Shown one piece after another: positions 2,356-46,606 of a stretch of 64,000 nt of DNA. This DNA comes from a phage. Location of the stretch: NCBI GenBank assembly GCA_036436775.1, contig GCA_036436775.1_3676.1, one strand, 5' to 3'. A model generated the notes under the pieces. That model was not told where the DNA came from, made no database searches, and saw only the letters and a list, made by a program, of their open reading frames with translations. Position numbers and translations under genes: made by a program. Numbering within the stretch: the stretch's first letter is position 1; each line of letters starts with the position of its first letter.

Positions 2356-3444
2356 ATGGCTGTATTTAATGCTGAGAACACTGCTCATAAAACTGGTGAC
2401 TATCCGCTGTTTTTAGGACAGCAAATGGGTATGTACGACTCTATTAACAAAAAATATCCACAACTGTTCGAACTGTACAAAAAACAAAAAGAACAAGACT
2501 GGGCAGAGGATGAAGTGGATTTGTCGCAATCTATTTCAGATTTTGTAACATGCTCCAAGTCAACTTATGACGTGATGGTGCAGACCTTGATGTGGCAATG
2601 GGAGGCTGATAGCGTTGCGGCAAGATCGATCATCTGCCTCTTTTCACCATTCATCACTAATAGTGAGCTTTTCACTCTATTGATGAAACAGTCAGAGATT
2701 GAAGTTCTTCACGCACTAACCTACTCAGAGATTGTTAGACAATGCCTTCCTAATGCTCGGGAGATTATAGAAGAGATTCAGGAAAACCAGAACGTACTGA
2801 GCAGATCTGGAGTTATTGTCAAATACATGCAAGAGCTTGAGATTATTGGTGCAAAATATCGACTGGATCCTTCTAGTGTTGAAGAAGATACTGTGCGGAA
2901 ATGCATTCTTAGAGCGCTTTTTGCACTTTTAGCTCTAGAAAGTATTGAGTTTATTGCAAGTTTTGCATGCACTTTCGCAGTAGCTGAACAGGGTATTTTT
3001 GTTCAGGTGGCGCAGCTTGTTCAAAAAATCATGCTTGACGAAATGCTGCATTCGAAAGGTGATTTTGCCATCATTGATATCCTGCTTAATGATCCAGCAT
3101 GGGAGAAAAGCTTCCTTGAGATAAAGGGAGAGTTAAAAGAGATTCTTGATGAAGTACGAACCAAGGAGTACGGTTGGAGTGACTATATTTTCAGCGAAGG
3201 AAGAGCGATTATAGGTCTTAACTCACCGTTGCTTAAAGAATGGGTTGACTATAACTGCTCACCGATTTATGATTACTACGACATCGACAAAGATTTTGTG
3301 CCGCCAACAAAGGACCCGCTACCGTTTATGCAGGTGTGGATGAAACCTTCATTGCAACAGACGGCTAACCAGGAAATGTCGAACACCGACTACCGAGTCA
3401 ACACAACTGTTAACGACGCTGAAGAAGAAATTTGGGAGTTTTAA
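2356..3444 (+). CDS. nrdB: Ribonucleotide reductase class Ia small subunit NrdB
   Basis: 362-aa ORF; ferritin-like motifs (EFIASFACTF...DEMLH), acidic C-terminal tail EEEIWEF. Confidence 0.93.
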   Translation: MAVFNAENTAHKTGDYPLFLGQQMGMYDSINKKYPQLFELYKKQKEQDWAEDEVDLSQSISDFVTCSKSTYDVMVQTLMWQWEADSVAARSIICLFSPFITNSELFTLLMKQSEIEVLHALTYSEIVRQCLPNAREIIEEIQENQNVLSRSGVIVKYMQELEIIGAKYRLDPSSVEEDTVRKCILRALFALLALESIEFIASFACTFAVAEQGIFVQVAQLVQKIMLDEMLHSKGDFAIIDILLNDPAWEKSFLEIKGELKEILDEVRTKEYGWSDYIFSEGRAIIGLNSPLLKEWVDYNCSPIYDYYDIDKDFVPPTKDPLPFMQVWMKPSLQQTANQEMSNTDYRVNTTVNDAEEEIWEF

Positions 3445-21895: not shown

Positions 21896-23189
21896 CTTCG
21901 GTTTGAAGGGGTATGGAGATACACCTGAGTGAACAGGGTGAACAACCGAACCATTGGCTATGGCATTAGCATGGCGAAGCGGACGGGTGACGAAAGAGGG
22001 GCCGGAGGACACCAGTCACTGCCATATGATATATGGGTGATAACCTGAAGAGTCTGAATAAGTGTTTAAGTACCAGTCAGAGGAAAAGGTGAATGGTAGC
22101 CGAAGGGGGAGGGGGGGTTACCTGCTTCTGTAAACATGCATCTGAAATACTACTTTAGATAACCTGAACCTGCCTTTCTGACAAATATTCCCTATTAAAC
22201 TTGAATTATTTATAGAAAATACCACAACACCACTTAAGTCTTTGATTTTACACACAAATCCTACAGATATTCACCTTCCATATTTAACATACTTGTAACA
22301 TATCTATACCTAACCTGTCCGATCAACTCCCCCACCCACATCCTCCATATTTTCCCTGTCTGTACCACCCCTGCCCCGCCGGGAGTCCCGTCATATCTGG
22401 CTTTCCAGCAAATATCACACCCACAAATATCATTGCCTGAAGAGGGTTTCATCCCATAATACATGCCTTACCTGAAGAGCGCTTCATATACCCAGTAAAT
22501 TTTTTAATTGACCCCCCTCCCAGCCGCCGGAGGGGTTGGCTTTTCCCACACAGACCTGAAGAGTCAGCCAGAAATATCTGAAGAGGTCCAGTTATGCCAC
22601 GATTTTGTGCTTGTCCTACAGGAGTGCTTCCCTGTCAGGAGCCGGTAGCGACTGGAGTGCTGCCAGGCGGACGAAATGGGAATCATTCTCATTCTTATAA
22701 CAATTCTCAAATATCGAGGCAGTGAGGCAAATTAATAGGTGAGGCCGTTCACACAGTGGCACAACATTTGCAACCTATCTTTTATGGGTGAATGAGAATA
22801 CCTATCATTGTGAGAATAGTTATCATTACGGGCAATTTAACATAATACCCATTATGCGCACCACTGGCGATACATACAGGGATTGATAACATGAGTTACT
22901 GTTTACACACATAACAATTATATTTCTTACTATTTGTGTGGGATATAGTTAGCAGCCGATAGATTAGATATTGACCTGCAGGCTTCCAACCGTCCAGACG
23001 TCTAAACGCCCACACAACAAGGATTATACATACAACACTGAATGTAAACAGGGCCGCAAAAATGCTACCATACAAGCTTGTAAATTTTTCATGCAGCACT
23101 TGACAAAGAGGAGAAAAACTTGTCTGACACAATATGACTTAATTGCCACAACATGACACTTTTGCACACCTGATTGTTTGCATGTCTAA

Positions 23190-23554
23190 TAGTTTACATA
23201 GATAACTGTTCACATACTTATCATTTACATGATTGACTGTTTACACAAAGATGATAAGCCATGCCATTCGTTTGCATGACAATAATTAACTGGTTTGCAA
23301 TTAACAAGTTAATAATCTTTCACTGGCTATGCCAGGTGACCTTTGGTCACACCTTCGGGTGTTTCTATGACATAATATAAAAGCAGGGCAACTATTAGCA
23401 GATATATAGTTGCCTTGCTTGTTATGTCATGATTAACTAAATACAAGGCAACTATGATCTGGTTAATAGTTTGCAGACAAACTATCACGGGGGTGATGGT
23501 TACTGCTTTTATATTATGTCGCGACTCCGTCGCGCCATGCCATTCGTTTGCATA
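23190..23554. repeat. Iteron/palindrome cluster (candidate origin or regulatory region)
   Basis: TGTTTACA-type iterons 23193-23250; 20-bp direct repeat GCCATGCCATTCGTTTGCAT at 23258 and 23535; 18-bp perfect inverted repeat at 23369-23386 / 23504-23521; GGCAACTAT palindromes between. Confidence 0.6.
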
Positions 23555-24172
23555 GTTGCCTTATTGTTACATATAAAATAATTGTATTGTTAATTATTTC
23601 TTATCTTTCTCTTAGTCATCTAATGATTCCAGTCAGTATAGTAATGTACAGTAAACATTAGACGACTAAAGATTTATATGCTTATAATAACTTACAGTGA
23701 CAATTTCGGACTGTTTACGAAAAATGTTGACACCTGAGCTGATTTATGTTATGCAGTTTACACGAATAATTATTTTATGCAGGTATTGACTATTCCGTTA
23801 TTCTATGGTCGGAATAAATACTTAGCAGACTATAGAATGGTGACGCTACGTGAATTCTGGAATTTAGTGGCTATAGTTATACCCGATTTTTCACGTAGAA
23901 CACGCTTTTGTGGTTATGTAAGTGTATGACTTATAAAGATTTTTAGTTGTTGACAAGACACTGAAGATATGCATCAGGTTAAATTTTGTGCAATAGCGGC
24001 ATTACGTGCAATTTTGGAAGGAAAAACGTGTAAAAATGGCCCTGCTACCACACAATGAAAGATTATGCAATAGCTATTTTACATGTATATTTGTACAGTG
24101 TGTGGGATTGATGGCTAGTCAATTATTCCACTTGCAGGCTGGGCCGTTTGTGGTAGGAGAAATACAGACAAA

Positions 24173-24207
24173 AAGAAAGGGGCCTTTTAAAGCCCCTGAT
24201 AGTTTAG
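24173..24207 (-). terminator. Rho-independent terminator ending the - strand small-gene island
   Basis: On - strand AGGGGC-TTTAAAA-GGCCCCT followed by TTCTTTTTGTCTG. Confidence 0.65.
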
Positions 24208-24215
24208 TTAAGAAA

Positions 24216-24635
24216 TTATAATGATTCGTATATTTGATAGATTCGATTTGCCAGGTCATTACGATAGCGGAATTTTTCATCACGCTTGATCATCAGATCT
24301 TTGAAGCCATATTCTTTAAGCACTTCATTAACTTTATAGCGGCATACCTTCATATTATCTTGCGCGTCACCGATAAATTTGTTGCTATGATGCATGGCTT
24401 TGATCTCTTCCTCCAGAGCCAGGGCAACTACGCGGACCGGATCAAGCTGATATGCGGTAACATCAATGCGGCATTGTAAACGGCTTTTAACGTCTGCCAC
24501 CGGATATACTGCAACCTCTTCCCCGTCAACATTCACAATAACCAGTTTACCATCAATTTCAAAACCTTTTGCGGCTGGGCCGTGACAAAAAGCGTTATCA
24601 AAGCTGTATGCGGGATTGTTAGATTTAATATTCAT
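24216..24635 (-). CDS. Hypothetical protein
   Basis: 139-aa ORF; upstream promoter and AGAGG RBS. Confidence 0.65.
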   Translation of the reverse strand: MNIKSNNPAYSFDNAFCHGPAAKGFEIDGKLVIVNVDGEEVAVYPVADVKSRLQCRIDVTAYQLDPVRVVALALEEEIKAMHHSNKFIGDAQDNMKVCRYKVNEVLKEYGFKDLMIKRDEKFRYRNDLANRIYQIYESL

Positions 24636-24682
24636 GGTGTTTACCTCTTAGATAATTTTCTTACAACTTCCTTCTGAAAAAG

Positions 24683-24711
24683 AATATAGCAAAACTGCCG
24701 ATCCTTGTCAA
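24683..24711 (-). promoter_or_regulatory. Sigma70-like promoter TTGACA-N17-TATATT (- strand)
   Basis: Hexamers read on reverse complement. Confidence 0.55.
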
Positions 24712-24773
24712 TAAGGATAGCATTATTTTTCAGAATCAAGGGGCTTTCGCCCCTGGTTGTATGGCTTGCTGTA

Positions 24774-25037
24774 TTACTTGTTATTCATCCAGTATTCCCA
24801 ACTTGCCTGATATTCTGCTTCATCACGGCGGATCTCTTCTTGCTCGGCAAGGCGGATCTCTTCTTCCAGGTATCCCAAGATATCGCCCTTTTTAGTCTGG
24901 CGTAACATCCAGTCGTCCTTTTTGCGGGTGAAAATTTTGTAAGCTTTTTCACAAACTTCTTTTTTGCTGCCTTTTTGAACTTCAAGGATACGGTAAGCCA
25001 TATGTTGAACTACTTTAAGCTGATCGATGCGTTTCAT
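24774..25037 (-). CDS. Hypothetical protein
   Basis: 87-aa ORF; RBS AGAGAGGAAAACATT. Confidence 0.6.
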   Translation of the reverse strand: MKRIDQLKVVQHMAYRILEVQKGSKKEVCEKAYKIFTRKKDDWMLRQTKKGDILGYLEEEIRLAEQEEIRRDEAEYQASWEYWMNNK

Positions 25038-25097
25038 AATGTTTTCCTCTCTATGTGGTCTTGATTAGTGGGCCTTTCGGCCCGTGTCATTATCTTA

Positions 25098-25370
25098 TTA
25101 CTTACGGCGGCAGAATTCAAGCGTTTTTAATTGATAATCTTCTTCGGCCTGGAGAACAACCGCCTCGATCATTTGGTTGGCGTTATCGAATCCGTATCCT
25201 CTGGCGAACTCATCAGCACCGCCTTTATGGTTGTATTCTGCGTTCATCGCTTCCACAAAATGGAATTCAAGATTATTGAGGTAAGGGCTTGATGTTCCGT
25301 CCTCTTTTTCGATGAGATCCCAAATAGCATTAAAACGTGATTCGACTTCTTGATTAATCCAGCTTGACAT
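25098..25370 (-). CDS. Hypothetical acidic protein
   Basis: 90-aa ORF; RBS AGAGAGGAAAACATC. Confidence 0.6.
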   Translation of the reverse strand: MSSWINQEVESRFNAIWDLIEKEDGTSSPYLNNLEFHFVEAMNAEYNHKGGADEFARGYGFDNANQMIEAVVLQAEEDYQLKTLEFCRRK

Positions 25371-25589
25371 GATGTTTTCCTCTCTTCTGGTTGTTGTGTT
25401 GGCACTTTTGCCCCTTCAAGATAATGTTACCCCACCCCCCTGGCAGATGTCAACGGTTTTTATAGTTCCTATATGACAGGCAGGTCCGGTGGTTGTCTCC
25501 CCCTGTTCCCAAGTGCCGCCCGTTTAATAAGAATAGCAAAAGGGGCCGAACAAGTCAACCCCCAAAATAAGTACCAAAACACTTTTTAT

Positions 25590-25901
25590 TTATACGGTCC
25601 GATCATTGGCCTTTGTCCAGGACCTGGCGATCCGTTTCCCGGTCACCTGGAACGGAGACTGCATTGTGTGTAAGGAGTCCAGCGTAAGGGAGGACCGTTT
25701 ACGGCGTATCTTCAGGATCGCTAACGTATTGTCCATCTCACGGCCAGGCCCTAGGCGGTATGGTGTGCCTCCAGCGTTAAGGTTGATGATCTCATGTATT
25801 GAGATCCGGCGTTGTTTTGCTTCCGCATCTTTGAAGATAGCCAGCGGGGGAGCTATGCGTTGCCGATACCAATCTAAAACGGTTGGCGTAATAGCGATCA
25901 T
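25590..25901 (-). CDS. Hypothetical protein
   Basis: 103-aa ORF with AGGGGG RBS; C-terminal extent uncertain. Confidence 0.4.
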   Translation of the reverse strand: MIAITPTVLDWYRQRIAPPLAIFKDAEAKQRRISIHEIINLNAGGTPYRLGPGREMDNTLAILKIRRKRSSLTLDSLHTMQSPFQVTGKRIARSWTKANDRTV

Positions 25902-26089
25902 ATTTTACCCCCTATGTAGTCAGGTCGGTTTTTCTCTGTCATGCGCTTAAGCAATTCTTGCATATGGCTGATAGCTTGTAGCGTGTCTTCTTCCAGGCTT
26001 GAATCTACATAATCAGGATCGTCTATGACCTTTCTATGATTATGATAACGCAGTACCGCCAATACCTTTCTAACTTGTTCAGTATTCAT
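25898..26089 (-). CDS. Hypothetical protein
   Basis: 63-aa ORF with AAGGGAGATG RBS. Confidence 0.55.
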   Translation of the reverse strand: MNTEQVRKVLAVLRYHNHRKVIDDPDYVDSSLEEDTLQAISHMQELLKRMTEKNRPDYIGGKI

Positions 26090-26105
26090 TTTACATCTCC
26101 CTTAC

Positions 26106-26396
26106 TTATTGTTGGCGGTTTACGTAAGCTTTACCGTTTACCGTCATCGGCAAATCTTCCAGGTCTGGATCTTCCTTAAGGTCGCGAGCAAGTTCACCGC
26201 ACCGGATACCCTCGAATCCGTAGTACTCTGTTGTGCCGTCCTTAAAAGTTTTAGCGGCAAGGCATAAGCGATAAGTAACCCCGATTCGATTGACGGCATG
26301 AATATCCGTTAGATTAACCTCTTTTGCCAGCTCTTTAGCCATTACAGGCGCATTAAGTCCAACAACCAGGGCAACTACTGCGATCATCTTTTTCAT
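26106..26396 (-). CDS. Secreted/periplasmic small protein (signal peptide)
   Basis: 96-aa ORF; N-terminus MKKMIAVVALVVGLNAPVMA resembles a Sec signal peptide. Confidence 0.6.
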   Translation of the reverse strand: MKKMIAVVALVVGLNAPVMAKELAKEVNLTDIHAVNRIGVTYRLCLAAKTFKDGTTEYYGFEGIRCGELARDLKEDPDLEDLPMTVNGKAYVNRQQ

Positions 26397-26487
26397 TGTG
26401 TCTAGCCTCTTTCTGCTACGTTTAAGGCGGCGGTAACCGCCTGTTTATGCTTTGTTGGTTAATTTTCGGGTATCGGTATAAATTAAA

Positions 26488-26703
26488 CTATGCTGTACGC
26501 TCAACTATAACAACGGTTTGAGGAATCTCACCTTCCACCACTAGCAAGGCCTTTTTCTGCGTGATGGATATCTTTACCCGTTGTAGCGTGGCGGTGAAGT
26601 CTTTCATTTCGTCACGTGGTGTTTTAGTGCAATGCCAGATCTCAGGCTTACCTATTTGCAAGCCGCGTAAAAATTCTGTTTTCCCTGTTTTGTTAGTGAT
26701 CAT
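26488..26703 (-). CDS. Hypothetical protein
   Basis: ORF; start moved to ATG with AAGGTGGAG RBS. Confidence 0.5.
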   Translation of the reverse strand: MITNKTGKTEFLRGLQIGKPEIWHCTKTPRDEMKDFTATLQRVKISITQKKALLVVEGEIPQTVVIVERTA

Positions 26704-26713
26704 TTGCTCCACC

Positions 26714-26818
26714 TTAACCGATACCGTTGGAAGATAGGATCATGTTAGCCAGAGTCGCAACCACTCCAACCGATAACACCAGGCCCACTATTACAACCGT
26801 GAAAATTTTCTCTAACAT
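26714..26818 (-). CDS. Small hydrophobic peptide (34 aa)
   Basis: ATG with GAGGGT RBS; single TM helix; not in ORF track. Confidence 0.4.
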   Translation of the reverse strand: MLEKIFTVVIVGLVLSVGVVATLANMILSSNGIG

Positions 26819-26860
26819 GATTCTACCCTCATTGATGGGCGTTACTGCCCCGCTTATGGT

Positions 26861-27097
26861 TTATTGATTGATGTTATAATGAAAGTTATTTTCTTCAGTA
26901 GCTTTTAAAATAAAAGCCGTGATCGCTTTCGTGTCTACTTGTTCGAACGTATCAGAATAGCACCAATAATAATCATCCCCTACTTTCGGCGGGTAAACCT
27001 GGACAAGGAGATCGCCACTTGGTTGATCTATAATCTCAACATGCAAGCCGGATGATTCAGCGGTTTTAACGGCGGTTAATACTGTTGCAATACTCAT
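26861..27097 (-). CDS. Hypothetical protein
   Basis: 78-aa ORF with AAAGGAAAAG RBS. Confidence 0.55.
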   Translation of the reverse strand: MSIATVLTAVKTAESSGLHVEIIDQPSGDLLVQVYPPKVGDDYYWCYSDTFEQVDTKAITAFILKATEENNFHYNINQ

Positions 27098-36718: not shown

Positions 36719-36910
36719 TCACTTGTTGTTAATAAGTTCTAAAACTTTCTGTCTTACTTTGTCAAGGTCTGTTGATTCAAAAACTGTGCGATATCCCCAA
36801 CTTTGCCCATAGGAGTGACTGCAATCTCCGTAACACCATTGCTCAATTTGATAGTATTCAAGGAACGGGTGCTGCCTGACTATGATACCGTCTCGATTAA
36901 AAATTACCAT
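36719..36910 (-). CDS. Hypothetical protein
   Basis: 63-aa ORF with GAGAGGGATAT RBS. Confidence 0.55.
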   Translation of the reverse strand: MVIFNRDGIIVRQHPFLEYYQIEQWCYGDCSHSYGQSWGYRTVFESTDLDKVRQKVLELINNK

Positions 36911-36941: not shown

Positions 36942-36970
36942 ATTATACACCGCAGTTTTCAGATGTCAAC
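36942..36970 (-). promoter_or_regulatory. Sigma70 consensus-like promoter TTGACA-N17-TATAAT (- strand)
   Basis: Both hexamers perfect on reverse complement. Confidence 0.6.
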
Positions 36971-36973
36971 CTC

Positions 36974-37168
36974 TTACAGATTGCTCCAGTACAATCGGCA
37001 TTTACATTTTGGGCAATGAGGTTCTTTTATGTAATAACCGTCAGTCTTTGGAACACTTTTTGGTGCAGTTTTAACATTGTACCTGGTAAAACATCGGAAG
37101 CAGGTTACCTCTCCGATCTGTTGATCGTTGATCCACTCGCCAGAGTAAAGCTCTTTCTTGTTTCTCAT
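36974..37168 (-). CDS. Small Zn-ribbon-like protein
   Basis: Start moved to ATG with GGGAGAGAATT RBS; CFRC...CPKC Cys pairs. Confidence 0.5.
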   Translation of the reverse strand: MRNKKELYSGEWINDQQIGEVTCFRCFTRYNVKTAPKSVPKTDGYYIKEPHCPKCKCRLYWSNL

Positions 37169-37419
37169 AATTCTCTCCCAAATCCTCTGCAATCTTATAC
37201 CAAAATCTCCAGCCAGAAAGCACACGGGAACACTTTGAGGATTGAATCTTTACTTGGCTCGGAAGTTCTTTTTCCGTATGGCAGGTAGAAATACCCTCCT
37301 GCAGATTCGAATATAGCTCCTTCGGTTGTATCTACCACAGCAAGAATTAAGATTTTAGTCTCCACAGTGCTCTCCTCTCTCAGTTGTTGTGGAAACTATA
37401 TCACCTCAGAAGATGGTCG

Positions 37420-37959
37420 TCAACACTTTTTGTACCCCACCACGATCACATCAATGTCTGTGGTGGCAAGATTAATGACGTCTTCCACGTGTTCCCACTT
37501 TAGACCACCAATACCGCATCCGATTTTAGGAATGTAGAACGGTAATGACATACCTTTGAATACCTCGTTGACTCGCTCAAAGCCTTTCATGATTGAGAAG
37601 TATTCAGCATTTGGCCCTGGGTAGAACTGGGTATACAGGTTGATTCCATATACGACCCTGTTCTTGGCAAAATGCTCCCAACAAGAAAACATGCCCAGCT
37701 TGTCTAGATTACCATAAGCAGTCTCTTTGTCGGCTGCCAGTGCTTGAGGGAACTCACGGGCAATATCTTTCGCTATACCTGCACCCATTGTGTGAAAGCA
37801 GTTACAACCGTGGATCATGTGGCCTGACCCTTTCTTGAAAATGGAGATTAGATCTCCACCTATAGTATCAATAATCACGGTATGCCAGCTCCTCTTCCGC
37901 AATTTCAAAAAACTCAGTCCAGCACTGTGGCATATTGGAGTTACCGAAGTGGCTTTCAT
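37420..37959 (-). CDS. Macro-domain protein (ADP-ribose binding/hydrolase fold)
   Basis: GDL...HGCNCFHTMGAGIAKDIAR and IPKIGCGIGG resemble macro-domain Gly-rich motifs; start uncertain, overlaps upstream gene. Confidence 0.55.
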   Translation of the reverse strand: MKATSVTPICHSAGLSFLKLRKRSWHTVIIDTIGGDLISIFKKGSGHMIHGCNCFHTMGAGIAKDIAREFPQALAADKETAYGNLDKLGMFSCWEHFAKNRVVYGINLYTQFYPGPNAEYFSIMKGFERVNEVFKGMSLPFYIPKIGCGIGGLKWEHVEDVINLATTDIDVIVVGYKKC

Positions 37960-38293
37960 AGTAAAGGTTCTCACCACTCGGAAGATAGAAATCTGTTACC
38001 TCGTAGAATCCACAATCGTCGCACTCACCTTCTTCAAACTTGGCCTCAACCTTAATACCGAGGAAGGTGAAAAGTTTATGGATATCTTCAGTTTCGAACT
38101 CCCAGTGAATGTTGTTTTCCGCATCGGTGTAGAACTGGATCAGCAGACCATTGTCCAGTTTACCAAAATACTCTGTGAAGTAACTTCCTTCCCAGAAATC
38201 TTTATGACAAATAATATCCATGCGTTTGCCCATAATAATGGTGTGAGCGTTTTGGGCATCGTCACGAATCAGTTTTGGCATTTCATAGATCAT
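37868..38293 (-). CDS. Hypothetical acidic protein
   Basis: 141-aa ORF; 3' end overlaps macro-domain ORF by ~90 nt. Confidence 0.55.
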   Translation of the reverse strand: MIYEMPKLIRDDAQNAHTIIMGKRMDIICHKDFWEGSYFTEYFGKLDNGLLIQFYTDAENNIHWEFETEDIHKLFTFLGIKVEAKFEEGECDDCGFYEVTDFYLPSGENLYYESHFGNSNMPQCWTEFFEIAEEELAYRDY

Positions 38294-39072: not shown

Positions 39073-39134
39073 TTTTCAGATCTCCTTATGCAAAAATGCC
39101 CCACCCTTTCGGGCAGGGCTATGTTAACTAATTG

Positions 39135-40361
39135 TTAAAAAGGGATGTCATCATCAAAGGAGTACTGTGCTGGATTCTGATCCATTGGGTCATCTTCCTC
39201 ATCATTTACAGGAGGAGCGTCTACAGTGTTTTGCTGTGGAGCTGCTTCCTGTTTGGCAGCCTGAGGTTCTTGATGGTCAGTTGACCCAGCACCGTTCTTG
39301 ATCCAATCGTACAACGGCTCAGCCAGATTAGTCAAGACATCTTTTGCTTCTGCAGTAATTGCCGCTGCAAAATCATCAACTTTCGTTTTCTTGTCAATAC
39401 GGCGACAAGCGTTCAACACCGCATTACCGACACTGGCACCTACTTCATCTTCAGTTCGGTTGGTGGCTTGAGCATACTCTTTCTTAAGCTCAATGGTGAC
39501 TACGTGCAGTGTTTTAGCCACGCCTAGTGGGTCGTCTACCTTAAACCCGCGATCCAGGATGATCTGCAACGCATTGATGCTATGCCCCGTCTCCACACCA
39601 ATAGGGTCGTAAGAGGATTTACGCTTGCCACCAGAACCTTGGGTGCCGTTCTCTGCCTTAGGTGGATAGGCTTTGAAACCACTGATAATGTTTCCGGTGT
39701 CTTTGTCAACAATGGCTGCAACACGACCACCTACCACCAGGTCTTTAAGCTGCTCATCCGTGACAACCATAGCACCTTCGCCGATCTTGTGGTCATTAAC
39801 AGTAACCACGTTGCCAACAATCTGAGTCACATCGCCATAGATGCGTAAAACGTCCTGATTGGCATTCTGCTGAGGTTTCTGCTTCTGACCTTGTGATTGT
39901 GCACCTTGTTGCTGTTTTTGCTGCTGAGTCGCTGCTGGAGCCTCTCCTGCACCCAGTTTGACCATCTTAGCCAGTGAGCCTTTGTAATAGGTCTTACCGT
40001 TATGCTCGTTTGCCTTCAAAGGAATATTTACGATCCATCCTGGCGTTACGGTTTCCCACTTGTCATCAATCTTAACAGAGACAGAGTCTTGATGACCAGG
40101 TTTAAGCAGCTTATCACCCATGCTGATCCAGACTTCTTCACCGCCTTGAAGCAGGTTATCAGAGGAATCCAGTTCAGAAATCAGTAAAGAGATGGTGTGG
40201 CTGGATTCAATTTTCTTACCTTGCCACACAGTGGTTTTAATACCTGTTGCAGGATCAGCCCCTTTAATAGGTTTGATGCTAACACGCTTGATCATACCGT
40301 GAGCCAGTAAAACAGTTTCACGCGGATTCATCGGGTTAGCGAATTGTTGAATAACGCTCAT
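39135..40361 (-). CDS. Putative ssDNA-binding protein with SSB-type acidic C-terminal tip
   Basis: 408-aa ORF; Q/G-rich linker and terminal DDDIPF identical to bacterial SSB C-terminal motif; AAGGAGACAAATA RBS. Confidence 0.5.
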   Translation of the reverse strand: MSVIQQFANPMNPRETVLLAHGMIKRVSIKPIKGADPATGIKTTVWQGKKIESSHTISLLISELDSSDNLLQGGEEVWISMGDKLLKPGHQDSVSVKIDDKWETVTPGWIVNIPLKANEHNGKTYYKGSLAKMVKLGAGEAPAATQQQKQQQGAQSQGQKQKPQQNANQDVLRIYGDVTQIVGNVVTVNDHKIGEGAMVVTDEQLKDLVVGGRVAAIVDKDTGNIISGFKAYPPKAENGTQGSGGKRKSSYDPIGVETGHSINALQIILDRGFKVDDPLGVAKTLHVVTIELKKEYAQATNRTEDEVGASVGNAVLNACRRIDKKTKVDDFAAAITAEAKDVLTNLAEPLYDWIKNGAGSTDHQEPQAAKQEAAPQQNTVDAPPVNDEEDDPMDQNPAQYSFDDDIPF

Positions 40362-43906: not shown

Positions 43907-44182
43907 CAATAGTTCAGGTAGGTCGTTAAGCTACCCCGCACCATTACGTGCATAGCCATACGTTTTCACGTAGGATCGGACCATCTCATATTCCTATGAT
44001 AAGCAACCACAGGAATCCTCCCATTTCGACCGCACTTGCTGGTCTACTTCCTTTCGGAATGGCCTCTGAGCGTTCGCTCTTTTGAGCGCTTCGTTGCGGA
44101 TTACCTTGCCATAAGGTTTAGGCTTCCCGCAGTTAAAGAGGTTATTCGACATAGATTACTCTATGAAGCCACAATGTTATTT
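43907..44182 (-). ncRNA. Candidate 276-nt group I intron splitting the DNA polymerase at motif C
   Basis: Upstream exon ends in U (codon CAT=His); intervening sequence ends in G before GAT GAG; joining gives YHDEYQLQV; internal GACCA/UGGUC pairing; contains stop codons. Confidence 0.5.
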
Positions 44183-46606
44183 ATGGTAATAAATAATACG
44201 GCGAACACCTTCATCGTACCACCCACGCTTCACCATTTGGTGGTGCATGAGTATCCCAACTAAGTCACACAGCGATGCACCACCATTCTGTTGGTATGCA
44301 TTAAGTAAAGAGTGTTTAGATCGGGTCCAGATAGCATGACCATCAAAAGAGTAGATAAACTTCTTACCAGTTGCTTCCCAGAATTTCTCCAGATCCTCTT
44401 TGCGCCCCTTAAGACCGGGGTTGGCATCCCAAAGCGCATCGATTACCCTTTGTCCCAACTCTGGAGAGATGTCCAGCATATCTGCAACTTTATCTTTTTG
44501 TGCCCCGTACATAACCCCATACGTGATAGGTTTACCGTCGTTACGGGACACCTCTCTACCTGCTACTTTCGTATATGCCTCAGCATTGTTTTGGTGTGCA
44601 TCTCCGTTACTTACAACATCGTAATACAGGCCGTTGTCGAACTCAAAGGCACCCCAAGCCCCGATAAGCTGCTCTAAGTTGGACCCGTCAATACCGATCT
44701 CAAAGTATCCTGGAGGAACACCCCACAAGCTACGCATCTCTTTACCCATAACCACTTTAGGAGATGGTTTAGGCATGTTTGCACAAATACTGTGTTTCTG
44801 TCTGGAAGTGTTTGTCAGCCCAGAACTTTTAGCAGGAAGCTTATGGTCAATCTTCAAACGTGGGTGATTAAGAAGACCAGTATCAACCTTATCCTCCTTG
44901 ATTGGATCAAGGACCGATCTGCGGTTTCGCAATGATAACCACAAGACGATATCTTTAGCCATCTCTCCGTTCAATTTTTCAAGATTCGGACACAGGTGTC
45001 CAAACGTATCTTTCAGTTGCGGAGAAGTAATAAGTGCTCTGGCTTTTCTACGTATTTTCCCGAATACTTCCTTTTTAATCCTTTCAGAGTTAGGAAAGCT
45101 TCGGAACTTGTGCACAGTTGTCTGGAACTTGGCATCAGTTTTGTTCCAGAAGTTGATAATCAGGTCACAATACTCTGACTCTAAAAGCTCGTCCATATAT
45201 GCATATACTCGTGCATCAACATCCGCATCAGGTAGAGCTTTCTTCTTGCTATCTTTAGTTACATCTTTAGTTCTCCACATTGTCGGTAGCCAGCCAGCAC
45301 TGATCAGATACCGCTTAATGTCGTCCTGATTGCTGATTTTCATAGGTATCTTGCAGTCCGGCATTCGCTTCTGCTGTAGATCACTTATTGCCTGATCCAT
45401 CAGCTCTTTAGGCAAAGGGTGGGGTGTGGAAGTGCCCTTAATATAGCCTCTCAAGAAATCAGCCATCTTATCGGGGTCTTTGCAGCCCATCTCTTCACAC
45501 CATTTTATCCCTATCTTGCTGACATCCCCTGTAGAGGTAAATGCTCGCTTAGGCGGGGCTTTGAACTCTAAAGCGCTCATGTCTACAGGATAGCCAAGCT
45601 TATCTTTTAACCATTTCCAACCATTATTAGAGATTGTCCCGTCTTGGTTAAACGGCTTTTCAGGGAACTTGGGCCGCTGAGACATTGACAGCTCTTTTAA
45701 AGGCAGCTGTGGTTCAACACGATCAGCGATTTCTTTCATCCACGCATCGCAACGGTCACGTAAAGCAATAGCTCCATCTATGTCGAAGTATACACCCTGA
45801 CGGGCCTGCAGCTCCATCAGGAAGTGCTGCAGCATGCCTCGACGTAGTGCGTTCTTCCAGGTGATCTTCTTGAACCCTTTCGGCTTCTCTTTGGCTGGAT
45901 CGTACATAAAGTTCTGCATGTCAGATTTGCCGTAGAATACACCTTTTGATTCCGCTACCAGCTCTTTCCAGAGCAGCTCCTGGATGATAACGTCCTCGAA
46001 TACACGATCCACATACTTCCACAACGGAAGATCGCGCCAGTCATCAATTTGAACTTTCTGGTTACCAAGGGCGTAGCCCCATGCCATAAGGCCGTGAGGA
46101 CCAACGGGCTGCATTTTCTTAGTAACCGGGTTGAATACAGAATCCGGACAACCTTTTGGTAAAGGGCGATCAGGCCACAAGATTCGGCTCATCGCCAACG
46201 TATCAAACAGATTAACCTGGTGGTCGTTGATAGTCCCCATACACTTAGGGTCACGGAACATATCAAAATGAATACCGGATAATCTTTCCATCAGCATAAA
46301 GTCATAACTGTAGCAGTTATGGCAGTTCAAAGCTGTTGGTGACCAGTCAGAATTTCCTGTAAGCCAACCTTCCAACTCCGAAAAATCTGCTATGCGAACT
46401 TCAAAATCTTTATAAAGAGTTTTCTTTGCCAGAATAAAGTTCTTAGCCTTCTCTATATCCTCTTCAGAGTAGTGTGTGCGGTCATTTAGAGGAAGGAACA
46501 GCATAAAACGGTTCTTATTCAGCTCTTTAAACAAGCCGCAGTGATAATAAAGATCTAGGTCTTCTAGTAAACCAGAGGCCTCAAGGTCGAAAGACCACAT
46601 ACTCAT
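44183..46606 (-). CDS. Family-A DNA polymerase, N-terminal segment (3'-5' exo domain, palm/fingers, motif B)
   Basis: FDLEASGL exo motif; Pol-A motif B KPITYGVMYGAQ; ORF runs into stop 8 codons past the point where motif C is expected; AAGGAGAACTGTAT RBS. Confidence 0.85.

What the first reader, a model, noticed from the sequence alone, without database searches (positions are those of the whole stretch)
37420..37977. Macro-domain protein in the replication module: candidate reverser of ADP-ribosylation
The product carries the glycine-rich motifs typical of macro domains (HGCNCFHTMGAGIAKDIAR and IPKIGCGIGG). Macro domains bind or hydrolyse ADP-ribose, so a phage copy could remove ADP-ribose marks deposited by host ADP-ribosylating toxins or defence systems; that role is inferred. 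The start is uncertain because the ORF overlaps the upstream gene by about 90 nt.
Basis: partly seen in the sequence, partly recalled or inferred. Interest (0 to 1): 0.58.

Follow-up and report, generated by a model that had tools for sequence, protein, structure and literature searches.

The report
Phage macrodomain, likely anti-DarT2 eraser
This rV5-like coliphage gene encodes a small ADP-ribose-removing enzyme related to phage T4's Tk.4/AdfM, which protects T4 from the bacterial DarTG2 defence, so it is a real but ordinary and largely explained anti-defence gene.

Summary
The ORF and both quoted motifs are real. The true gene is shorter than reported: GTG at 37878, stop at 37420, 152 aa. 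It overlaps the upstream gene by 11 nt, not about 90.

The window is a Vequintavirus (rV5/FV3-like) genome, 96-97% identical to many records. The exact protein is already in NCBI as "macro domain-containing protein".

The macro assignment holds:
- Pfam Macro scores above its gathering threshold.
- The AlphaFold2 model has mean pLDDT 93.5.

It is a full-length homologue of T4 Tk.4 (39% identity, E 2e-42). It is 65.6% identical to the match at the same locus of a T4-like Krischvirus. A 2025 preprint shows that deleting tk.4 (named adfM) sensitises T4 to DarTG2.

The catalytic lysine of DarG and TARG1 is an invariant glutamine here (117 of 117 relatives). SCO6735 has the same arrangement and cleaves thymidine-linked ADP-ribose from DNA.

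Best reading: a stand-alone eraser of DarT2-made ADP-ribose on phage DNA. This rests on homology and has not been tested for this protein. It is a new member of a known kind, of low to moderate interest.

The parts
37420..37878 (-). Coding sequence of the 152-aa stand-alone macrodomain protein (GTG start, TGA stop included)
   Evidence: Translation was checked. Pfam Macro scores above its gathering threshold. It is 39% identical over its full length to T4 Tk.4. tblastn of Tk.4 hits only 37878..37429 in the window. A51.2 and FV3 annotate the same 459-nt CDS. The exact sequence is in NCBI.
37889..37895 (-). Shine-Dalgarno-like AGAGGAG, 10 nt upstream of the GTG start; it lies inside the 3' end of the upstream gene
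   Evidence: Read directly from the sequence. Phage Mangalyan has an annotated ribosome-binding site at the equivalent spacing.
37868..37878 (-). 11-nt overlap GTGATTATTGA between the macro start codon and the stop codon of the upstream 141-aa gene (37868..38293); suggests co-transcription and translational coupling
   Evidence: The coupling itself is inferred.
37771..37812 (-). Residues 23-36, HGCNCFHTMGAGIA. This is the first glycine-rich ADP-ribose-binding loop, preceded by H23 and N26, which correspond to H24 and N27 of SCO6735.
   Evidence: N26, G24, C27, G34 and A36 are invariant and H23 is present in 116 of 117 relatives.
37627..37641 (-). Residues 80-84, NLYTQ. Q84 occupies the position of the catalytic lysine of DarG (K80) and TARG1 (K84), and of Gln85 of SCO6735.
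   Evidence: Profile alignments to solved structures. N80, Y82, T83 and Q84 are invariant in 117 of 117 relatives. T4 Tk.4 has the same NLYTQ.
37504..37533 (-). Residues 116-125, IPKIGCGIGG. This is the second glycine-rich (diphosphate-binding) loop. The position of TARG1 Asp125 is Gly here.

Best explanation
The gene encodes a stand-alone, 152-aa macrodomain ADP-ribosylhydrolase of the TARG1/DarG/SCO6735 (ALC1-like) class. It belongs to the T4 Tk.4 (AdfM) family.

Proposed mechanism. When the phage infects a cell carrying a DarTG2 toxin-antitoxin defence, the freed DarT2 toxin attaches ADP-ribose to thymidines in single-stranded phage DNA, which blocks replication. The phage enzyme binds the ADP-ribose through its two glycine-rich loops and hydrolyses the ribose-thymine bond, restoring the DNA. 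It acts as an orphan antitoxin mimic.

Its active site is not the lysine type of DarG. It is the glutamine type described for SCO6735: Q84 is held by N26 and positions the distal ribose, with water doing the chemistry. Binding and inhibition of DarT2 itself may also contribute.

Shown here: the macro fold, the class, the homology to Tk.4, and the conserved residues. Inferred: the substrate, the catalysis and the anti-DarTG2 role in this phage.

For: 2. Same family as T4 Tk.4.
- 39% identity over the full length, E 2e-42, with all motifs shared.
- It is the only match to Tk.4 in the window.
- 65.6% identity to the tblastn match in the T4-like Krischvirus Brandy, which lies downstream of regB at the position tk.4 holds in T4.
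- 48% identity to the protein encoded between vs and tk in Providencia phage PSTCR6.

3. T4 tk.4 was the single significant transposon-screen hit on a DarTG2 host, and a clean knockout sensitised T4 to DarTG2 (10.1101/2025.11.20.689424). T4 lacking adfA and adfN stays resistant to DarTG2 (PMC11825919).

4. Q84, N26 and H23 match SCO6735 Gln85, Asn27 and His24 and are conserved in 116-117 of 117 relatives. SCO6735 cleaves thymidine-linked ADP-ribose from DNA and rescues cells from DarT. Its Q85A mutant is dead and N27S nearly so (PMC9411070). That paper calls thymidine de-ADP-ribosylation a unifying activity of this macro class.

5. A macrodomain anti-DarT2 enzyme is biochemically proven in another phage clade, PhiKZ AdfM (PMC13309987).

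6. No partner ADP-ribosyltransferase was detected next to the gene or among the 20 ORFs of 139-493 aa that were scanned. This fits an eraser aimed at a host enzyme.
Against: - No biochemistry exists for this protein or for T4 Tk.4. The T4 evidence is genetic and comes from a preprint.
- Identity to T4 Tk.4 is only 39%, so specificity could differ.
- The protein lacks the five-residue-longer mobile loop with Lys89 and Lys94 that SCO6735 uses for DNA. It has Gly where SCO6735 has Val25.
- Relatives in this class also act on protein Glu/Asp-ADP-ribose, O-acetyl-ADP-ribose, ADP-ribose-1''-phosphate or uracil-ADP-ribose in RNA, so the physiological substrate cannot be read from sequence.
- I found no data on whether Vequintaviruses resist DarTG2.
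- Only 64 kb of the genome was examined for a phage-encoded transferase.
Confidence: 0.68

Rival explanations
1. Protein de-mono-ADP-ribosylase. The enzyme removes ADP-ribose from Glu/Asp (or other) side chains of host or phage proteins. It would reverse host transferase-based defences, or tune phage-directed ADP-ribosylation as T4 does with Alt, ModA and ModB.
For: TARG1 and SCO6735, both close structural neighbours, remove Glu/Asp-linked ADP-ribose from PARP1 in vitro (PMC8120803; PMC9411070).
Against: The TARG1 Lys84/Asp125 dyad used for protein substrates is absent, replaced by Gln and Gly. No transferase was detected near the gene or in the scanned ORFs of the window. The only phenotype known for a family member is sensitivity to DNA-modifying DarTG2.
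Confidence: 0.1
2. Processor of soluble ADP-ribose derivatives, for example an ADP-ribose-1''-phosphate phosphatase or an O-acetyl-ADP-ribose deacetylase. This is the sense of the database label 'phosphatase'. A variant is a degrader of ADP-ribose-derived immune signals or toxic metabolites.
Against: The 'phosphatase' label is a historical transfer from a generic macro-domain activity, not a test. No source of ADP-ribose-1''-phosphate was found in the window: none of the ORFs scanned gave a KptA/Tpt1, 2H-phosphoesterase or RNA-ligase match, though only 30 of its ORFs were scanned. This reading does not explain the T4 tk.4 phenotype on DarTG2.
Confidence: 0.1
3. RNA de-ADP-ribosylase. The enzyme removes ADP-ribose from uracil bases or phosphate ends of RNA, protecting phage transcripts from RNA-targeting transferases.
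For: TARG1, DarG and SCO6735 reverse uracil-linked ADP-ribosylation of ssRNA in vitro (PMC13036486). TARG1 also acts on phosphate-end ADP-ribosylated RNA (PMC11833690).
Against: No bacterial anti-phage system making uracil-ADP-ribose is known from the papers read. SCO6735 was inactive on 2'-OH-modified RNA in the assays described. On phosphate-end substrates the same paper is inconsistent: its results call SCO6735 inactive, while its discussion calls it active on RNA phosphate ends. CmdT adenine modification is described as irreversible.
Confidence: 0.05
4. Mainly a stoichiometric inhibitor or ADP-ribose binder. It would neutralise DarT2 (or sequester an ADP-ribose-containing ligand) by binding, with catalysis being secondary.
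For: Catalytically dead SCO6735 Q85A still inhibits DarT by interaction, more strongly than DarG or TARG1 mutants. The ICP1 factor AdfB works by binding DarT (PMC11481870).
Against: The residues needed for catalysis in SCO6735 (Gln, Asn, His) are invariant or nearly so across 117 relatives at 35-97% identity. That argues for selection on enzymatic activity. The protein lacks the C-terminal DarT-binding domain of DarG: it is 152 aa, and DarG profile positions 9-143 of 338 are the only ones matched.
Confidence: 0.05

Closest known systems
T4 Tk.4 = AdfM (anti-DarT factor Macrodomain), HIDEN-SEQ preprint 10.1101/2025.11.20.689424
   Same: Stand-alone macrodomain of about 152-155 aa in a lytic coliphage. 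39% identity over the full length with the same start residue. Identical motifs: HGCNCFHTMG-G-A, ADK, KLG, NLYTQ, PGPN-EY and P-IG-GIG. Gln sits at the catalytic-lysine position. The tblastn match at the same locus of the T4-like Krischvirus Brandy is 65.6% identical.
   Different: Different phage subfamily and genomic context. Here the gene is coupled to an unrelated 141-aa gene, not to vs and tk.3. The anti-DarTG2 phenotype was shown only for T4.
Streptomyces coelicolor SCO6735 (PDB 5E3B) and Bacteroides BT1257 (2FG1/2AFC)
   Different: About 20-22% identity. The phage protein lacks the 5-6-residue-longer mobile loop carrying Lys89 and Lys94. It has Gly for Val25 and Ala for Lys34. These are cellular, not viral, proteins.
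DarG antitoxin of DarTG2 (T. aquaticus / M. tuberculosis macrodomain, PDB 5M3E / 5M3I)
   Different: The catalytic Lys80 is Gln here. There is no C-terminal DarT-binding domain and no adjacent darT. The score of 43.8 bits is far below the 250-bit equivalog cut-off.
Chimallivirus AdfM (PhiKZ gp104), PMC13309987
   Same: A phage-encoded stand-alone macrodomain shown to remove DarT2-made ADP-ribose from DNA. It works as the same kind of counter-defence.
   Different: Only 22% identity (E 5e-5 pairwise). It is Lys-type (FPTK, K78) and imported into the phage nucleus. It is a separate clade that happens to bear the same name.
Human TARG1/OARD1 and yeast Poa1p
   Different: The TARG1 Lys84/Asp125 dyad is absent. 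Poa1p acts on soluble ADP-ribose-1''-phosphate. These are eukaryotic proteins at about 21-24% identity.

Membership tests
Macro domain superfamily (Pfam PF01661) | Profile match above the curated gathering score | tested here: met
   25.2 bits against a cut-off of 22, E 1.6e-5, covering profile positions 1-117 of 118. The family profile hits solved macrodomains at about 4e-14.
Macro domain superfamily (Pfam PF01661) | Three-layer alpha/beta/alpha macro fold | tested here: met
Macro domain superfamily (Pfam PF01661) | Two glycine-rich ADP-ribose/diphosphate-binding loops | tested here: met
   M31-G32-A33-G34-I35-A36 and G120-C121-G122-I123-G124-G125. G32, G34, G120 and G122 are invariant or nearly so in 117 relatives.
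Macro domain superfamily (Pfam PF01661) | Actual binding or hydrolysis of ADP-ribose | not testable with these tools
   Needs purified protein.
T4 Tk.4 / AdfM family (Gln-type phage macrodomain) | Full-length sequence homology to T4 Tk.4, as the only such gene in the region | tested here: met
   39% identity, E 2e-42, residues 1-150 against 1-152. tblastn of Tk.4 finds only 37878..37429 in the window. T4-like records show a single match, next to vs. 65.6% identity to the Krischvirus Brandy match at the equivalent locus.
T4 Tk.4 / AdfM family (Gln-type phage macrodomain) | Shared family motifs HGCNC, ADK, KLG, N-x-YTQ and P-x-IG-x-G | tested here: met
T4 Tk.4 / AdfM family (Gln-type phage macrodomain) | Protects the phage from DarTG2 | not testable with these tools
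   Shown genetically for T4 only.
DarG antitoxin (NCBIfam NF048014 equivalog) | Score above the equivalog cut-off | tested here: not met
   43.8 bits against 250. Only the N-terminal macro part, profile positions 9-143 of 338, is matched.
DarG antitoxin (NCBIfam NF048014 equivalog) | Catalytic lysine (Lys80 of T. aquaticus DarG) | tested here: not met
   Q84 aligns with the TK lysine of DarG and TARG1. Gln is present in 117 of 117 relatives.
DarG antitoxin (NCBIfam NF048014 equivalog) | C-terminal DarT-binding domain and an adjacent darT gene | tested here: not met
   The protein is 152 aa and consists of the macro domain only. Its neighbours are unknown-function PHROGs with no transferase.
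TARG1-type hydrolase | Lys84/Asp125 catalytic dyad | tested here: not met
   Gln and Gly occupy the aligned positions.
SCO6735-type (Gln) ALC1-like macrodomain | Gln at the lysine position, with the Asn that holds it and the neighbouring His | tested here: met
   Q84, N26 and H23 align with Gln85, Asn27 and His24. All three are conserved.
SCO6735-type (Gln) ALC1-like macrodomain | Extended mobile loop with Lys89 and Lys94, and Val25 | tested here: not met
   The profile alignment shows a 5-residue insertion in SCO6735 (6 in BT1257) that the phage family lacks. Gly24 replaces Val25.
Chimallivirus AdfM (PhiKZ gp104 type) | Close homology to gp104 and a Lys-type active site (N23/K78) | tested here: not met
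   22% identity, E 5e-5. gp104 has FPTK where this protein has YTQ.
Poa1p-type ADP-ribose-1''-phosphate phosphatase | Equivalents of Poa1p His23 and Ser30, and phosphatase activity | tested here: inconclusive

The most novel reading that the evidence does not exclude
Phage anti-DarT macrodomains may comprise two mechanistically different clades that now share the name AdfM. One is a Lys-type, DarG-like clade (PhiKZ). The other is a much larger Gln-type clade (T4 Tk.4, this rV5-like protein, and homologues in about 5% of sequenced phages).

The Gln-type clade would use the lysine-free, water-mediated chemistry proposed for SCO6735. It could be a broad-spectrum eraser acting on thymine-ADP-ribose in DNA, uracil-ADP-ribose in RNA and perhaps protein adducts. 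If so, it would protect against several ADP-ribosyltransferase defences rather than DarTG2 alone.
Probability: 0.3. Interest if true: 0.45.

Novelty: new member of a known kind. Interest (0 to 1): 0.27.

Why it matters
If the inference holds, rV5-like (Vequintavirus) phages carry a ready-made counter to DarTG2. These phages are broad-host-range and are often considered for therapy. An anti-DarTG2 gene would help explain and predict their host range on E. coli strains carrying that defence.

The result also adds a data point that the T4-type AdfM family is widespread: 2807 of 50,697 phage records and 1377 50%-identity clusters at E no greater than 1e-10. The family appears to have moved between T4-like and rV5-like phages.

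The family uses a glutamine rather than a lysine active site. That matters to anyone dissecting the mechanism or designing inhibitors. Beyond this, the finding is an expected accessory gene, not a new kind of system.

Tried and rejected
1. The long 185-aa ORF starting at GTG 37977 was rejected. Its first 33 residues are an out-of-frame read of the upstream gene's 3' end. No homologue extends there, and annotated records and NCBI use the 152-aa form.

2. A phage-encoded transferase partner (a toxin-antitoxin-like pair) was considered. Pfam and PHROGs found nothing on the ten neighbouring ORFs, and Pfam found nothing relevant on 20 further ORFs of 139-493 aa. That second scan returned only a ribonucleotide reductase small subunit, an Fe-S/radical-SAM protein, PhoH, a Clp protease, a cell-wall hydrolase and a metallopeptidase. 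Small ORFs elsewhere and the rest of the genome were not scanned.

3. A functional pair with the translationally coupled upstream 141-aa gene was considered. That gene has no Pfam or PADLOC match. It is not similar to the gene upstream of the macro gene in phage PSTCR6, and different genes flank the macro gene in Brandy and T4. There is no support for a conserved two-gene module.

4. A bona fide DarG was rejected on score, domain content, catalytic residue and context.

5. Membership of the PhiKZ AdfM clade was rejected: 22% identity and Lys-type.

6. I checked whether bacterial members sit next to darT. The one examined, from Pelagimonas, is a lone chromosomal gene.

7. Promoter and terminator scans of 35.5-41 kb were not enriched over shuffles: 13 promoter-like sites against 10 expected, and 2 terminator-like sites against 4.5. 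They give only weak hints.

8. A search for published DarTG tests on Vequintavirinae found none.

Full report
**What is in the sequence**

On the minus strand there is an open frame 37420..37977 (185 aa from a GTG). It lies in a long array of co-directional small genes.

The upstream ORF, 37868..38293 (141 aa), ends with TGA at 37868-37870. A GTG at 37876-37878 is in the macro frame, and AGAGGAG lies 10 nt before it. Translation from that GTG gives a 152-aa protein beginning (M)IIDTIGGD.

Every relative begins at this residue. This holds for 50 aligned homologues, for T4 Tk.4, and for the tblastn match of Tk.4, which runs 37878..37429. The same 459-nt CDS is annotated in phages A51.2 and FV3. 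The exact 152-aa sequence is in NCBI as MEE6793624.1, "macro domain-containing protein".

The gene is therefore 37420..37878. It overlaps its upstream neighbour by 11 nt, which suggests translational coupling.

**Where it comes from**

The 3-kb region around the gene is 96-97% identical to more than 100 Vequintavirus (rV5/FV3-like) genomes, including several BASEL phages. Some of these records are labelled as Campylobacter phages.

In those genomes the gene is called "macro domain protein", "phosphatase" or "hypothetical protein". It lies about 6.3 kb downstream of the DNA polymerase gene (window 44177..46606), within a block of small genes of unknown function.

The ten neighbouring ORFs match only unknown-function PHROGs, apart from one phage zinc-binding domain. 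Pfam scans of 20 further ORFs of 139-493 aa found no ADP-ribosyltransferase, NADAR, Nudix or KptA-like protein.

**Is it a macro domain?**

Yes.
- Pfam Macro scores 25.2 bits against a gathering score of 22.
- PHROG 335 matches at 1e-58.
- The only notable NCBIfam and PADLOC matches are DarG, through the macro part only and far below the equivalog cut-off.
- A profile of 50 relatives hits solved macrodomains at about 4e-14 to 8e-12: BT1257, M. tuberculosis and T. aquaticus DarG, SCO6735, TARG1 and Poa1p.
- The AlphaFold2 model is confident, with mean pLDDT 93.5 and pTM 0.88.

This places the protein in the TARG1/DarG/SCO6735 (ALC1-like) class.

**Active site**

In the profile alignments, the family's invariant N-x-Y-T-Q motif (residues 80-84) aligns with "N-F-P-T-K" of DarG and "L-I-T-K" of TARG1. 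Q84 therefore takes the place of the catalytic lysine, DarG K80 or TARG1 K84. The position of TARG1 Asp125 is Gly.

SCO6735 and BT1257 also have Gln at this position ("N-M-I-G-Q"), preceded by the same His-x-Cys-Asn motif. Here that motif is H23-G24-C25-N26.

Across 117 relatives at 35-97% identity, Q84, N26, N80, Y82, T83, D50, G24 and C27 are invariant, and H23 is present in 116 of 117.

SCO6735 hydrolyses thymidine-linked ADP-ribose on ssDNA and rescues cells from DarT. Its Q85A and Q85E mutants are dead, and N27S is nearly dead. A water-mediated mechanism has been proposed in which Gln85 positions the distal ribose (PMC9411070).

The phage family differs from SCO6735 in three ways:
- It lacks the 5-6-residue-longer mobile loop carrying Lys89 and Lys94.
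- It has Gly where SCO6735 has Val25.
- It has Ala where SCO6735 has Lys34.

**Link to a tested protein**

The family is very common in phages. tblastn finds it in 2807 of 50,697 phage records. These include T4-like phages, where the hit lies next to the vs gene, as well as Felixounavirus, Pakpunavirus, Acinetobacter, Vibrio and other phages.

That T4 locus is tk.4. T4 Tk.4 is 39% identical to the window protein over its whole length (E 2e-42), with all motifs including NLYTQ.

Two closer relatives tie the window protein to this group. The match in the Krischvirus Brandy is 65.6% identical and lies downstream of regB, where tk.4 lies in T4. The protein of Providencia phage PSTCR6 is 48% identical and is encoded between vs and tk. 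This points to gene exchange between T4-like and rV5-like phages.

A 2025 preprint reports that tk.4 was the single significant hit when a T4 transposon library was grown on a DarTG2 host. A clean tk.4 knockout became sensitive to DarTG2, and the authors named the gene adfM (10.1101/2025.11.20.689424). Earlier work showed that T4 lacking adfA and adfN remains resistant to DarTG2, and predicted a further factor (PMC11825919).

Independently, a macrodomain of chimalliviruses (PhiKZ gp104, also named AdfM) was shown biochemically to remove DarT2-made ADP-ribose from DNA (PMC13309987). That protein is Lys-type ("FPTK") and only 22% identical to the window protein. It is a different clade.

**Most likely function**

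The protein is most likely a stand-alone eraser of thymidine-linked ADP-ribose placed on phage ssDNA by host DarT2. In effect it is an orphan antitoxin mimic of the T4 AdfM type, using a Gln-type active site like SCO6735.

Shown here: the gene model, the macro fold and class, the conserved residues and the homology to Tk.4. Taken from the literature: the T4 phenotype and the SCO6735 chemistry. Inferred: that this protein has the same substrate and role. I put this at about 0.68.

Four rivals cannot be excluded from sequence:
- A protein de-mono-ADP-ribosylase.
- A processor of soluble ADP-ribose derivatives, which is the old "phosphatase" label.
- An RNA de-ADP-ribosylase. TARG1, DarG and SCO6735 act on uracil-ADP-ribose (PMC13036486).
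- A mainly stoichiometric DarT binder. SCO6735 Q85A still inhibits DarT.

The invariance of the catalytic constellation argues against a pure binder. The absence of the Lys/Asp dyad and of any nearby transferase argues against a protein-directed role.

**Context elsewhere**

The one bacterial member examined, from Pelagimonas, is a lone chromosomal gene without a darT neighbour. This is like the orphan SCO6735.

The upstream 141-aa gene is not conserved next to the macro gene in the other phages examined, so there is no evidence for a two-gene module.

An exhaustive phmmer search finds 1377 50%-identity clusters at E no greater than 1e-10, mostly stand-alone proteins of about 150 aa.

**Novelty and verdict**

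Macro domains are reported in about 41% of myoviruses (PMC9503650). This exact protein is already annotated as a macro-domain protein, and its T4 homologue already has a published (preprint) anti-DarTG2 role. It is therefore a new member of a known kind, of low to moderate interest.

One nuance deserves note. The T4/rV5-type AdfM family is Gln-type, mechanistically closer to SCO6735 than to DarG. It is distinct from the Lys-type PhiKZ AdfM that shares its name. Its substrate range could be wider than DarT2 products.

Noticed in passing
window 36942..36969 (minus strand): A perfect sigma-70 consensus, TTGACA-16 nt-TATAAT (12 of 12), lies just upstream of the small ORF 36719..36910 and downstream of the macro gene block. 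It may be a strong early promoter inside the leftward gene array.
   Followed up: no
window 39098..39119 (minus strand): A GC-rich hairpin followed by a T-run (terminator-like) lies directly after the 408-aa glutamine-rich gene 39135..40361 (PHROG 4477, unknown function). It would separate that gene from the transcription unit that may contain the macro gene.
   Followed up: no
window 37868..38293 (minus strand): A 141-aa gene of unknown function (PHROG 8157, no Pfam or PADLOC hit) overlaps the macro gene start by 11 nt. It is not found next to the macro gene in the T4-like phages examined.
   Followed up: partly
window 36974..37225 (minus strand): A small protein carrying the Pfam 'Phage zinc binding domain' (PF23903, E 5e-22) lies two genes downstream of the macro gene.
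   Followed up: no
L006 (PhiKZ gp104) versus L004:4923-5390 (T4 tk.4): Two independently published anti-DarT2 macrodomains are both named AdfM but belong to different clades. PhiKZ gp104 is Lys-type (FPTK). T4 Tk.4 is Gln-type (YTQ). The window protein, which belongs with Tk.4, is only about 22% identical to gp104.
   Followed up: partly
L011 (Krischvirus phage Brandy, MZ504876) 2501..2956: The macro match in a T4-like Krischvirus is 65.6% identical to the Vequintavirus protein. That is much closer than T4's own Tk.4 at 39%, and suggests fairly recent exchange of this gene between T4-like and rV5-like phages.
   Followed up: partly
one search hit list (MG065654, MG065666, MG065659 and others): Sixteen records named 'Campylobacter phage' are 96-97% identical to this E. 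coli Vequintavirus region. The host labels of those records look doubtful.
   Followed up: no
protein cluster of P0001: The 90%-identity cluster of the macro protein also lists 141-aa members that are the product of the upstream, differently framed gene. This looks like a clustering artefact in the collection.
   Followed up: no
window about 23100..25350: By coordinate transfer from FV3, this stretch corresponds to the roughly 2-kb gene-free gap between divergently transcribed blocks. The HIDEN-SEQ preprint reports that this gap took no transposon insertions in Bas54. No tRNA was found in the window, and the only tandem repeat in the 22000..27000 scan is a weak one at 22793..22827, just upstream of this stretch.
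   Followed up: partly
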